From Escherichia virus TH49, in sequence record MT446417.1: DNA of 41,043 bases, one strand, 5' to 3'. Within the stretch, counting starts at the first letter, position 1, and the number at the start of each line of letters is the position of its first letter. The notes beneath the pieces were generated by a model. The model searched no databases, was not told where the DNA came from, and saw only the letters and a program-made list of their open reading frames with translations. Below are positions 15,933-17,704 of the stretch, in pieces. Both the position numbers and the translations under genes were made by a program.

Positions 15933-16220
15933 ATGGCTATTACCAAGCGTGTACGTGTAACATTTGACTCAAAGTTTGTAGCGAGTACGGACGACATCAA
16001 CGAGTTCACTAAGACCTTAGTGGGCTACTCTAAGCGCTTCATGGAGGGCGATAAGACCCTTAAGGGTGACGAGATGGCGCTTGCAGAGATGGCGGCCAAG
16101 GAAGGCGTAGAGGCTGCTGTGGCGCTGTCTATCAAAATGGCCTACTCAAAAGCTATCAAGAGCGAGCTGTCTGACGACTACGTGACAGTCTCCAACATCC
16201 GAGTGGAGATTAAACAGTGA
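15933..16220 (+). CDS. Gene 5.5-like protein (95 aa)
   Basis: ATG with AGGAG upstream. The N-terminus MAITKRVRVTFD resembles the recalled T7 gp5.5 start; the syntenic position is after gene 5. The assignment is tentative. Confidence 0.5.
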   Translation: MAITKRVRVTFDSKFVASTDDINEFTKTLVGYSKRFMEGDKTLKGDEMALAEMAAKEGVEAAVALSIKMAYSKAIKSELSDDYVTVSNIRVEIKQ

Positions 16221-16426
16221 GCGAGTACCTAAAAGTTCTGGCGGCCCTCAAGGGCTGCCCTAAGTCCTTCCAGTCGAACTACGTGCGCAACAATGCTGCG
16301 TTAGTCGCTGAGGCTGCGAGCCGTGGTCACATTTCGTGTCTGACCATGAGTGGTCGTAACGGTGGCGCTTGGGAAATTACAAGTGCCGGAGTGAAATTCC
16401 TTAAGACACATGGGGGTTGCTTATGA
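16217..16426 (+). CDS. gp5.7: Gene 5.7 protein homolog (69 aa)
   Basis: GTG start overlapping the upstream stop. Nearly identical to the recalled T7 gp5.7 along its length (SEYLKVL, KSFQSNYVRNNAALVAEAASRGHISCLT.SGRNGGAWEIT). Confidence 0.88.
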   Translation: MSEYLKVLAALKGCPKSFQSNYVRNNAALVAEAASRGHISCLTMSGRNGGAWEITSAGVKFLKTHGGCL

Positions 16427-16806
16427 GTAAGCTGTCCGATAACGTTAAAGGCTACGTAAAGGAGCTTGGAGAGCGGGAGACGGAGCACCGCAAGTATTCT
16501 TCGTTCTACCTGACGATATCCCTGAAGGTTACAGAGAGCGATGCTGAGAACGAAGAGGAGCTGCTACCATATGTCGGTAAAGAGATTGTCGCTACCGGAA
16601 TGTGGGACGACACTTGGGGTGATGAGATTTACGACTGGCGAGTATTCTCTGTGGAGACCTCTGAGGAAGACACTGAGGCTCGCTCAGAGTTCCGCGAACT
16701 ACTCTCACACCTCAACGCTGAGGATAACAGTATGGCTCTTGATTTCCTTGAGAAGCACCTTAAGCCGAAACAGGTGGAGGAGCGTGTGGAGGTTCACCAT
16801 GAGTAA
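16423..16806 (+). CDS. Hypothetical acidic protein (127 aa) at the gene 5.9 position
   Basis: ATG at 16423 overlapping the gp5.7 stop. Strongly acidic product (roughly a quarter D/E). It occupies the slot of T7 gp5.9 but is longer and shows no similarity to the recalled gp5.9. Confidence 0.6.
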   Translation: MSKLSDNVKGYVKELGERETEHRKYSSFYLTISLKVTESDAENEEELLPYVGKEIVATGMWDDTWGDEIYDWRVFSVETSEEDTEARSEFRELLSHLNAEDNSMALDFLEKHLKPKQVEERVEVHHE

Positions 16807-17704
16807 GCACACATTGTTATCCTTCAGCGACTACCGGGCAACCCAGAAGATTGCCAAGGGTGTCCTTGTAATGGATGGTGACTGGCTGGTGTTCCAAGCC
16901 ATGAGTGCCGCTGAGTTCGATGCCTCGTGGGAGGATGAGATTTGGCACCGTTGCTGTGACCACGCCAAGGCCCGTGAGATTCTGGAGAACTCCATCGAGT
17001 CCTACAAGGGCCGCAAGAAGGCATGGAAGAATGCAGACGTTATCCTAGCGTTCACCGACCGTGTCAACTGGCGCAAGCTGCTGGTTGACCCAACGTACAA
17101 AGAGAACCGCGCAGTCGTCAAGAAGCCTGTGGGATACTTCGAGTTCCTTGAGTACGTATTCGAAACCTACACGTGCGTCCTTGAGCCTCAGCTCGAAGGC
17201 GATGACGTGATGGGTATCATTGGGTCTAACCCTCTCGTGTACAACTACGAGAAGGCCGTACTGGTCTCCTGCGACAAGGACTTTAAGACCATCCCGTACT
17301 GCGACTTCCTGTGGTGTACGACTGGTAACATCCTCGTGCAGACTCAGGAGACAGCCGACTACTGGCACCTCTTCCAGACCATCAAAGGTGACATCACCGA
17401 CGGTTACGGTGGGATTCCCGGATGGGGAGATACCGCAGAGGACTTCCTCAAGGAGCCATTCATTGTGGAGCCTGTAACGTCCGTGCTGAAGTCCGGCAAG
17501 AACAAGGGCCAAGAGGTAACCAAGTGGGTGAAACGCGCTCCTGAGCCGGGAGAGACGCTCTGGGACTGCATCAAGTCCATTGGTGCCAAAGCAGGGATGA
17601 CCGAAGCGGAAGTAATCAAGCAGGGCCAGATGGCTCGCATCCTCCGTTCTGATGAGTACAACATCGAGACTGGGGAGATTACTCTATGGCAACCGGGCAG
17701 CTGA
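16799..17704 (+). CDS. gp6: 5'-3' exonuclease (T7 gp6 homolog)
   Basis: 301 aa from the ATG at 16799 (GGAGG 8 nt upstream). Near identity to the recalled T7 gp6 (VMDGDWLVFQAMSAAEFDASWE.EIWHRCCDHAKAR, KKPVGYFEFL, GDDVMG, CDKDFKTIP.CDFLWCTTGNIL, IKGDITDGY, GWGDTAEDFL, KSGKNKGQEVTKWVKR). The track ORF from 16541 is an upstream extension. Confidence 0.96.
   Translation: MSKHTLLSFSDYRATQKIAKGVLVMDGDWLVFQAMSAAEFDASWEDEIWHRCCDHAKAREILENSIESYKGRKKAWKNADVILAFTDRVNWRKLLVDPTYKENRAVVKKPVGYFEFLEYVFETYTCVLEPQLEGDDVMGIIGSNPLVYNYEKAVLVSCDKDFKTIPYCDFLWCTTGNILVQTQETADYWHLFQTIKGDITDGYGGIPGWGDTAEDFLKEPFIVEPVTSVLKSGKNKGQEVTKWVKRAPEPGETLWDCIKSIGAKAGMTEAEVIKQGQMARILRSDEYNIETGEITLWQPGS

What the first reader, a model, noticed from the sequence alone, without database searches (positions are those of the whole stretch)
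16423..16806. Acidic 127-aa protein replaces gp5.9 (RecBCD inhibitor) between gene 5.7 and the exonuclease gene
Flanking genes 5.7 and 6 are highly conserved with T7, but the intervening ORF is about 2.5 times longer than T7 gp5.9, shows no similarity to it as far as I can recall, and is strongly acidic (clusters such as ESDAENEEELL and VETSEEDTEARSE). An acidic protein in this slot could be a DNA mimic or a different kind of nuclease/defence inhibitor.
Basis: partly seen in the sequence, partly recalled or inferred. Interest (0 to 1): 0.55.

Follow-up and report, generated by a model that had tools for sequence, protein, structure and literature searches.

The report
Two-module acidic protein in gp5.9 slot
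A real, strongly conserved 127-residue acidic phage protein of unknown function sits where T7 keeps its RecBCD inhibitor; it is not a gp5.9 homologue, but it carries a short helical hairpin that is otherwise found on gp5.9-family inhibitors.

Summary
ORF 16423-16806 (+) encodes a 127-aa protein (pI 4.6, net charge -17) between gp5.7 (80% identical to T7) and the gene 6 exonuclease (78%). No gp5.9 homologue exists anywhere in the window. The window is Escherichia virus TH50, a Przondovirus.

The gene is real: dN/dS is 0.01-0.05 with dS up to 1. It belongs to phrog_4382, a small phage-only family of unknown function. The AlphaFold model is confident (pLDDT 89) but matches no solved structure, including known DNA mimics.

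"Replaces gp5.9" needs qualifying. The 5.7-6 gap is a hypervariable cassette site that can be empty or hold at least six unrelated small genes, among them true gp5.9-family members (Pfam PF25708).

New here: the protein has two modules.
- Residues 85-114 (LLSHLNAEDNSMALDF) are homologous to the N-terminal hairpin of many gp5.9-family proteins (hhalign 97%).
- Residues 7-82 are homologous to the protein encoded directly downstream of those genes in Chaseviridae (hhalign 92%).

I infer a stoichiometric binder of the host hub that gp5.9 proteins target, most likely RecBCD, working through a different blocking domain. This is untested; confidence is about 0.3.

The parts
16423..16806 (+). CDS of the 127-aa acidic protein (here called X), a phrog_4382 member
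   Evidence: ORF and sequence. phrog_4382 match E=8.1e-42 over residues 1-126. dN/dS 0.01-0.05. AlphaFold2 pLDDT 89.3.
16441..16668 (+). N-terminal 'B domain' (residues about 7-82): helix 6-15, strands 17-24, 27-35, 53-62 and 66-82, with variable acidic helices 38-50. Conserved EHRKY (21-25), G52, G59 and G66.
   Evidence: Secondary structure; conserved columns. Homologous to Chaseviridae gp59-like proteins: hhalign 91.6%, E=8.4e-7; profile hits of 28-31 bits; Foldseek BFVD hit to Erwinia phage Y2 Gp59.
16675..16764 (+). 'SHLN' helix-loop-helix module (residues 85-114, EARSEFRELLSHLNAEDNSMALDFLEKHLK): helix 85-96, loop LNAEDN, helix 103-112
   Evidence: Hit to phrog_6163 positions 5-28, E=3.9e-5. 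blastp to ST32 gp48: 54% over 35 aa, E=7.5e-9. hhalign against 40 gp5.9-family proteins: 97.2%, E=2.9e-11, 53% identity. Same helix-loop-helix boundaries in the model of ST32 gp48. Most conserved region among SHLN-bearing members: 43% against 26-30% elsewhere.
16765..16803 (+). C-terminal strand and tail (residues 115-127); its codons carry the Shine-Dalgarno sequence (GGAGG, 16788-16792) and start codon (16799) of gene 6
   Evidence: Sequence. Strand 116-123 in the model. Least conserved region of the family.
16217..16426 (+). gp5.7 homologue, the upstream conserved flank of the cassette site; its stop overlaps the start of X (ATGA)
   Evidence: 79.7% identity to T7 gp5.7; phrog_1334.
16799..17704 (+). 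Gene 6 exonuclease, the downstream conserved flank; 8-nt overlap with X
   Evidence: 77.7% identity to T7 gp6; phrog_107 exonuclease, E=9.5e-78.
15933..16220 (+). gp5.5-like H-NS-binding protein, part of the same tightly packed gene run
   Evidence: phrog_1452, E=6.4e-19; weak Pfam PF11247 hit.

Best explanation
X is a middle-gene accessory protein carried as one of several alternative cassettes between gp5.7 and the gene 6 exonuclease. It is built from two portable modules:
- a beta-rich acidic 'B domain' with a fold not seen in solved structures;
- a conserved helix-loop-helix ('SHLN hairpin') that otherwise forms the N-terminal end of many gp5.9-family (Pfam PF25708) RecBCD-inhibitor-like proteins.

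My proposal is that X acts without catalysis, as a stoichiometric binder of the same host DNA-end-processing hub that gp5.9-family proteins target, most likely RecBCD. The SHLN hairpin would serve as the docking element, and the acidic B domain would serve as a blocking surface in place of the gp5.9 coiled coil.

Shown: the gene is real and under strong purifying selection; it has two modules; it has homology links to gp5.9-family proteins and to their downstream neighbour; the site is hypervariable; the family is restricted to phages.

Inferred: that it binds a host protein, that the target is RecBCD, and that the hairpin is the docking element.
For: (1) Position. X occupies the T7 gp5.9 slot, translationally coupled to gp5.7 and gene 6. 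The window has no gp5.9-family gene of either type.

(2) The slot is an accessory hotspot. Alternative occupants include true PF25708 members. Przondovirus genomes with 97-99% identical flanks differ in slot content.

(3) Shared module. X residues 85-114 match the N-terminal hairpin of PF25708 proteins (hhalign 97.2%, E=2.9e-11). H-L-N-x-E-x-N-x-x-A is invariant in 40 diverse gp5.9-family proteins and is retained in X. In T7 gp5.9 the N-terminal end contacts the RecB/RecC core (PMC9836394).

(4) Gene neighbourhood. In six Chaseviridae loci, from three named genera plus one unclassified Aeromonas phage, an SHLN+gp5.9-family gene is followed, with overlap, by a gene homologous to the X B domain. 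Fusion in one lineage and adjacency in another together suggest a shared pathway.

(5) Character of the family. Conserved net negative charge. No enzyme-like or any Pfam, NCBIfam or PADLOC match. Found only in phages of Enterobacterales and relatives. Absent from 185,579 bacterial and archaeal genomes, apart from one phage-like contaminant scaffold and one chance match.

(6) Selection. dN/dS of about 0.02 fits a conserved target.
Against: - There is no experimental datum on any family member.
- X shares no module with T7 gp5.9 itself. The link runs through a module, the SHLN hairpin, that is outside the part of the family shown to bind RecBCD.
- RecBCD inhibition has been demonstrated only for T7 gp5.9 (T3 Gp5.9 is also used experimentally as a RecBCD inhibitor in PMC13192584). 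It has not been shown for the GVDNW-type PF25708 proteins.
- gp5.9 also inhibits MukBEF (PMC7617805), so the hub need not be RecBCD.
- Co-occurrence of the B domain with a gp5.9-family gene in Chaseviridae shows that B is not simply redundant with gp5.9.
- The best-conserved B-domain residues are basic/aromatic (EHRKY) and glycines rather than acidic.
- No fold similarity to any known inhibitor was found.
- Mutual exclusion of X and gp5.9-family genes in T7-like slots (0 of 80 loci with both) is not significant, since only about 1.5 were expected.
Confidence: 0.3

Rival explanations
1. Classical DNA mimic. The acidic surface of X imitates the DNA backbone and competitively blocks the DNA-binding site of RecBCD or of another nuclease or restriction system, making it functionally redundant with gp5.9.
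For: 25% D+E, pI 4.6, net -17. Negative charge is conserved across the family, concentrated in helices 37-51 and the beta3-beta4 region. It sits in the same slot as gp5.9. DNA mimics have very diverse folds (PMC9836394), so lack of a fold match does not exclude mimicry.
Confidence: 0.2
2. The SHLN hairpin is a B-domain-binding element rather than a host-binding one. In Chaseviridae, gp58 (SHLN+gp5.9 domain) would recruit gp59 (B domain) into a complex. In X the two are fused in cis, and the B domain has its own, different target. One possibility is a host guard system that senses RecBCD inhibition; another is a second defence protein.
For: The A|B gene pair is conserved and overlapping. In the X model the hairpin is confidently placed with the B domain (pLDDT 90-93, pTM 0.66). 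B-only proteins exist (L085, P0014, P0018, P0037).
Against: The SHLN motif is invariant in gp5.9-family proteins of phages in which no B gene was found next to it (ST32, phiEa21-4, T7-like L059/L077). The window has X but no gp5.9-family protein to protect or to partner.
Confidence: 0.15
3. X is an accessory factor of the phage's own DNA or nucleotide metabolism, not a host inhibitor. For example, it could modulate the gene 6 exonuclease, ligase or nucleotide-pool enzymes.
For: Family members always lie in DNA or nucleotide metabolism blocks:
- upstream of the exonuclease in T7-likes;
- between nrdD and nrdG in Mooglevirus;
- next to DNA ligase in L010;
- after dUTPase and ligase in Chaseviridae.
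Very low dN/dS also resembles a housekeeping gene.
Against: The gene is present in only about 16% of otherwise near-identical Przondovirus genomes, and the slot can be empty, so it is dispensable for the core machinery. The neighbouring enzymes differ between phage families. gp5.9 itself lies in the same blocks simply because it is a middle gene.
Confidence: 0.15
4. X is a small-molecule sponge or a small enzyme. For example, it could sequester an immune signalling nucleotide, using the conserved EHRKY / G-x-W-x-D-x-x-G-x-E residues as a ligand pocket.
For: The invariant or near-invariant residues are K24, G52, G59 and G66, with conserved H/R/Y/W/E around them. The size (about 110-150 aa) is typical of phage sponges.
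Against: No fold or sequence match to Tad, Acb or other sponges, or to any enzyme. A net charge of -17 is unfavourable for binding anionic nucleotides. The genetic links are to a protein-binding inhibitor family.
Confidence: 0.07

Closest known systems
T7 gp5.9 / Pfam PF25708 (Phage_T7_Gp5_9), the RecBCD (and MukBEF) inhibitor
   Same: Same genomic slot between gene 5.7 and gene 6. Both are small and acidic (pI 4.1 against 4.6). Middle-gene context. X shares its SHLN helix-loop-helix with many PF25708 members.
   Different: X gives no PF25708 match. It is 2.4 times longer. Its predicted fold is alpha/beta, not a parallel coiled-coil dimer (PMC9836394). The shared hairpin is absent from T7 gp5.9 itself. 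The target is unproven.
SHLN+GVDNW gp5.9-family proteins (phrog_6163; e.g. Escherichia phage ST32 gp48, Erwinia phage Y2 gp58)
   Same: The N-terminal hairpin is homologous to X residues 85-114, with the same secondary-structure boundaries. They occur in the same T7-like slot (L059, L077).
   Different: They are 57-85 aa and all-helical, and they carry the PF25708 domain and an acidic tail. X carries the B domain instead.
Chaseviridae gp59-like proteins (Erwinia phage Y2 gp59 and homologues)
   Same: Homologous to the X B domain (hhalign 91.6%; Foldseek BFVD hit). Similar length of about 130 aa.
   Different: They have no SHLN hairpin and a different C-terminal half (VEQVTETITVTKWKP...). They are always encoded directly after an SHLN+gp5.9-family gene. 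Function is equally unknown.
Lambda Gam and P22 Abc2 (other phage RecBCD modulators)
   Same: Small phage proteins that act by binding RecBCD. This is the kind of mechanism proposed for X.
   Different: No sequence or fold similarity was detected.
Alpha/beta DNA mimics (Ugi, AcrIIA4, Arn, ArdA and similar)
   Same: Small and acidic, combining a beta-sheet with helices.

Membership tests
Pfam PF25708 Phage_T7_Gp5_9 (gp5.9 RecBCD inhibitor family) | Sequence match to the family profile at or above the gathering score (24.5 bits) | tested here: not met
   No PF25708 hit for X at E<=1. Controls pass: T7 gp5.9 27.8 bits, ST32 gp48 44.1, Y2 gp58 52.5, the Przondovirus 54-aa protein 62.3.
Pfam PF25708 Phage_T7_Gp5_9 (gp5.9 RecBCD inhibitor family) | All-helical, coiled-coil architecture of about 50-85 residues | tested here: not met
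   The X model has five strands and five helices over 127 aa. A family member (ST32 gp48) is modelled as three helices. gp5.9 is a parallel coiled-coil dimer (PMC9836394).
Pfam PF25708 Phage_T7_Gp5_9 (gp5.9 RecBCD inhibitor family) | Binds RecBCD and blocks DNA binding | not testable with these tools
   Needs biochemistry or multimer prediction; neither was available.
DNA mimic proteins (functional class) | High density of surface carboxylates and low pI | tested here: met
   25% D+E, pI 4.59, net -17. The family ranges from -9 to -19. This is composition only; surface exposure was not examined.
DNA mimic proteins (functional class) | Structural resemblance to a known mimic, or charge spacing that matches the DNA backbone | tested here: not met
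phrog_4382 (phage proteins of unknown function) | Full-length profile match | tested here: met
   E=8.1e-42, residues 1-126 against profile positions 5-129 of 130.
SHLN hairpin module (N-terminal part of phrog_6163 / many PF25708 proteins) | Motif L-[LM]-S-H-L-N-x-E-[ED]-N-x-[ML]-A in a helix-loop-helix | tested here: met
   X has LLSHLNAEDNSMA at residues 93-105. hhalign 97.2%, E=2.9e-11. The motif residues are invariant in 40 family members. Helix boundaries match in both models.
Chaseviridae gp59-like 'B domain' proteins | Profile-profile homology over the beta-rich N-terminal domain | tested here: met
   hhalign 91.6%, E=8.4e-7, over X residues 7-82. Profile hits of 19-31 bits to four of five proteins. 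Foldseek BFVD hit to Y2 Gp59: E=1e-2, probability 1.0, TM 0.44. Support is moderate, not strong.

The most novel reading that the evidence does not exclude
The SHLN hairpin may be a portable docking module that virulent phages of Enterobacterales graft onto different 'warheads'. One warhead is the gp5.9 coiled-coil DNA mimic; the other is the new-fold B domain. Both would then attack the same host DNA-end-processing hub. Under this reading X is a structurally new RecBCD (or MukBEF or other hub) inhibitor, and the Chaseviridae gp58/gp59 pair is the same two-part system in unfused form.
Probability: 0.2. Interest if true: 0.7.

Novelty: new variant of a known kind. Interest (0 to 1): 0.48.

Why it matters
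RecBCD is a central immunity and repair hub. Inhibiting it is sensed by guard systems such as retron Ec48, and it shapes the outcome of Gabija, Druantia and Zorya defence (PMC12407980, PMC13192584).

Most Klebsiella T7-like therapeutic phages lack T7-type gp5.9 (0 of 187 gp5.9-positive records are Klebsiella phages). Their gp5.7-gp6 slot differs between near-identical isolates. Knowing what each cassette does would therefore help explain host-range differences between isolates.

The modular link found here turns an anonymous hypothetical protein into a specific, cheap hypothesis to test. It also suggests that the large gp5.9 family (at least 2,377 clusters) has a second conserved functional element that has not been studied structurally.

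Tried and rejected
Searches that found nothing:
- Sequence searches of Pfam, NCBIfam, PADLOC and PDB chains gave nothing meaningful.
- Literature searches for the family, for gp5.9 analogues in Klebsiella phages and for accessory-gene screens found no study of this protein.
- The sigma-70 promoter and terminator scan around the gene was at background.

Tests without enough power or detail:
- Mutual exclusion of X and gp5.9-family genes: 0 of 80 loci carry both, but only about 1.5 were expected, so the test has no power.
- Contexts of distant homologues in large phage contigs are arrays of small unknown genes and were uninformative.
- A profile too divergent for the search for related loci failed. 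A narrower one recovered only 9 IMG/VR loci, all already seen.

Ideas rejected:
- Host-motif mimicry. The SHLN motif pattern is absent from 185,579 reference genomes, apart from one chance match and one phage-contaminant scaffold.
- A metal-binding site. Cysteines near the EHRKY motif are not conserved.

Full report
**1.

The region is 100% identical to Escherichia virus TH50 (MT446418). It is 92-96% identical to many Klebsiella Przondovirus genomes, which are T7-like.

The ORF at 16423-16806 (+) is as described: 127 codons plus TAA.
- Its ATG overlaps the stop of gp5.7 (ATGA).
- It is preceded by GGGGG six bases upstream.
- Its last 8 nt overlap the ATG of gene 6, and the gene 6 GGAGG lies inside the ORF.

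The three genes are therefore tightly packed, as translationally coupled genes usually are.

The protein has 32 D+E against 15 K+R, pI 4.59. I fetched T7 itself (NC_001604) for comparison:
- gp5.7 is 79.7% identical.
- gp6 is 77.7% identical.
- T7 gp5.9 has no match in the window better than E=1.5.

The ORF is a real gene. Among Przondovirus copies dN/dS is 0.011-0.047 while dS reaches about 1.0.

**2. What family it belongs to**

X matches phrog_4382 (unknown function) end to end, E=8e-42. It has no Pfam, NCBIfam, PADLOC or PDB-sequence match.

The family is small and phage-only:
- 14 clusters at 50% identity among 1.8 billion proteins.
- 34 clusters at 90% identity with a profile search.
- 167 GenBank phage records.

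It occupies the same gp5.7-gp6 slot in three genera:
- Przondovirus, 95-100% identical.
- Kayfunavirus, about 45%.
- Elunavirus, 29%, where the record annotates an ORF on the wrong strand.

It also occurs in other phage types:
- In Mooglevirus and Suspvirus myoviruses, where it lies between nrdD and nrdG in the Mooglevirus examined.
- In 64-180 kb phage contigs, among arrays of small unknown genes.

**3. Structure**

AlphaFold2 with an 18-sequence alignment gives a confident model: pLDDT 89.3, pTM 0.66. The elements in order are helix 6-15, strands 17-24 and 27-35, two short acidic helices at 38-50, a long hairpin at 53-62/66-82, helices 85-96 and 103-112, and strand 116-123.

Fold searches found no relative of known function:
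- Foldseek against the PDB has nothing below E=0.4.
- BFVD returns only uncharacterised phage proteins.

So no relative with a solved structure was found. The conserved residues are EHRKY (21-25), G52, G59, G66 and W61/E68. They are not the acidic clusters, which lie in the most variable, indel-rich segment. Net negative charge is nevertheless conserved across the family, at -9 to -19.

**4. The slot is a cassette hotspot**

I collected 80 Studiervirinae loci through gp5.7 and measured the gp5.7-gp6 gap. Even where both flanks are 97-100% identical to the window, the gap takes many values: -3 (empty, 16 loci), 154-205, 274-275, 320, 373 (X alone), 529, or 542 nt (X plus a 58-aa ORF).

The occupants fall into at least six unrelated families:
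- X.
- A 54-58 aa protein (phrog_12303).
- A 70-90 aa protein (phrog_2251).
- A 117-aa protein (phrog_18166).
- A 44-aa Cys-rich peptide.
- Small acidic proteins ending in an acidic tail and carrying the motif GGVDNW.

In GenBank, 65 of 398 Przondovirus-like records that have both flanks carry X. "X replaces gp5.9" is therefore better put as [quoted passage not shown].

**5. The GGVDNW proteins are true gp5.9-family members**

Pfam PF25708 (Phage_T7_Gp5_9) scores all of the following above its gathering threshold, over the whole profile:
- The 54-aa Przondovirus protein: 62 bits.
- A 60-aa T7-like form: 71 bits.
- ST32 gp48: 44 bits.
- Erwinia phage Y2 gp58: 52 bits.
- T7 gp5.9 itself: 28 bits.

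The family is large, with at least 2,377 clusters at 90% identity. The 120 best-scoring members listed are all 57-85 aa. T7-type gp5.9 itself is absent from Klebsiella phages: 0 of 187 positive records.

**6. The key finding: X is built from two modules, each linked to the gp5.9 family**

*(a) The SHLN hairpin.* Residues 88-111 of X hit phrog_6163 (E=3.9e-5). That family turns out to be gp5.9-family proteins with an N-terminal extension...LLSHLNAEDNxMAxEF....
- X against ST32 gp48: 54% identity over 35 residues, E=7.5e-9.
- X-family profile against a 40-member gp5.9-family profile: hhalign 97.2%, E=2.9e-11, 53% identity over 30 columns.
- H, L, N, E, N and A of the motif are invariant in those 40 proteins.
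- The helix-loop-helix boundaries are the same in the two independent models.
- Within the X family this hairpin is the best-conserved segment, at 43% against 26-30% elsewhere.

*(b) The B domain.* The N-terminal domain of X (residues 7-82) is homologous to Erwinia phage Y2 gp59 and its relatives.
- Foldseek BFVD hit.
- Profile hits of 19-31 bits.
- hhalign 91.6%, E=8.4e-7.

In six Chaseviridae loci this B gene directly follows the SHLN+gp5.9-family gene, and the two reading frames overlap. The loci are Loessnervirus Y2, Berlingot and SSEM1, Suwonvirus PP101, Faunusvirus, and an unclassified Aeromonas phage. ST32 has the first gene but not the second.

Four arrangements therefore exist:
- A alone (SHLN+gp5.9 domain).
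- B alone (e.g. L085, P0014).
- The A|B gene pair.
- B fused to SHLN, which is X.

X shares nothing with T7 gp5.9 itself. The connection runs through the hairpin and through gene neighbourhood.

**7. Mechanism**

What follows is inference. The following points all fit a non-enzymatic protein that binds a conserved host component:
- The slot.
- The patchy presence among near-identical genomes.
- Restriction to phage genomes. A degenerate DNA pattern for the motif found only one chance match and one phage-like contaminant scaffold among 185,579 reference genomes.
- The conserved acidity.
- The lack of any enzyme signature.
- The very low dN/dS.

The double link to the gp5.9 family points to the hub those proteins target. 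For T7 gp5.9 that hub is RecBCD, and the N-terminal end of the dimer contacts the RecB/RecC core (PMC9836394). MukBEF is a second known target (PMC7617805).

The SHLN motif stays invariant in gp5.9-family proteins of phages where no B gene was found beside it. For that reason I favour the hairpin being a host-docking or bracing element rather than a B-binding element. X would then dock to the same hub and block it with the B domain. I put this at about 0.3.

The rivals are:
- A plain DNA mimic: 0.2.
- The hairpin binds B, and B has its own target: 0.15.
- A phage DNA-metabolism accessory factor: 0.15.
- A sponge or enzyme: 0.07.

The A|B co-occurrence argues against B being merely redundant with gp5.9. 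The window has no gp5.9-family gene of either type, so X acts without one here.

**8. Novelty and verdict**

The gene is annotated only as hypothetical, or mis-annotated, in public records, and I found no paper on it. As an acidic accessory protein in a known anti-RecBCD slot it is unsurprising in kind.

What appears to be new is its fold, its two-module construction, and the hairpin shared with a large inhibitor family. Together they give a concrete, cheap hypothesis to test. I rate it a new variant of a known kind, with interest about 0.5.

Noticed in passing
L001:2400-2576 (Klebsiella phage IME321); also L017, L024, L051: In a subset of X-carrying Przondovirus genomes a further 58-aa ORF (phrog_12303, unknown function, not acidic) sits between X and gene 6, giving a 542-nt slot. 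The window lacks it.
   Followed up: partly
L003:2498-2947, and slot proteins of L063, L081, L085 (Kayfunavirus and relatives): Unrelated slot proteins end in a similar tail: ...P-A-T/M-x-x-M-A-x-x... (LMPATVTMATGGLDDGF, PLPATLAMAKVGQHDER, VPAMSVAKAASHE, VPVAMSTAKELS). The likely cause is that different cassettes read into the same conserved junction DNA just upstream of gene 6, which would mark the recombination boundary of the cassette site.
   Followed up: no
P0006 (Klebsiella phage vB_Kpn_K42PH8, 91 aa): A natural in-frame deletion variant of X lacks residues 47-82 (the beta3-beta4 hairpin) but keeps the N-terminus and the SHLN hairpin. UniRef labels it 'Rho-GAP domain-containing protein', which looks like an annotation artefact.
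   Followed up: partly
MG835568 (SH-Kp 152410) and L005:2492-2869 (Pantoea phage SK1, MN450150): Annotation errors in public records. The X homologue is called 'baseplate hub assembly protein' in MG835568. In SK1 the record annotates a 92-aa ORF on the opposite strand, whereas the X homologue (125 aa, + strand) is the conserved gene.
   Followed up: partly
L109:354-391 (Flammeovirga aprica JL-4, NZ_JABANE010000306.1, 1074-bp scaffold): A 1-kb scaffold in a Bacteroidota genome assembly encodes a near-identical Przondovirus-type X C-terminus (DTEARSEFRELLSHLNAEDNSMALDFLEKHLKPKLVGNRVE). This is almost certainly Klebsiella-phage contamination of the assembly.
   Followed up: partly
L004:4001-4393 (Citrobacter phage Mordin) and L063 slot protein (117 aa): The Mooglevirus X homologue lies between the anaerobic ribonucleotide reductase genes nrdD and nrdG. 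Another T7-like slot occupant (phrog_18166) also hits phrog_2294, which is labelled 'ribonucleotide reductase'. The same small accessory genes seem to move between the T7-like 5.7-6 slot and the nrd region of Ounavirinae, and the 'reductase' label is probably guilt by location.
   Followed up: no
L007:5761-6249 and L009:7217-7774: In two unrelated large phage contigs that carry X homologues, a small (162-185 aa) protein with a GmrSD_N (PF03235) hit lies one to five genes downstream. I do not know whether this is coincidence.
   Followed up: no
L102:3001-3168 (Erwinia phage phiEa21-4, NC_011811 6480-6647): An SHLN+gp5.9-family ORF is present but unannotated in the reference record, between gp8 and a terminator.
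   Followed up: partly
window 16217-16220: gp5.7 starts with GTG, overlapping the TGA stop of the gp5.5-like gene (GTGA). This is the same tight junction at which T7 is annotated with a possible 5.5-5.7 fusion product, and several Przondovirus records annotate a 'fusion protein 5.5/5.7'.
   Followed up: no
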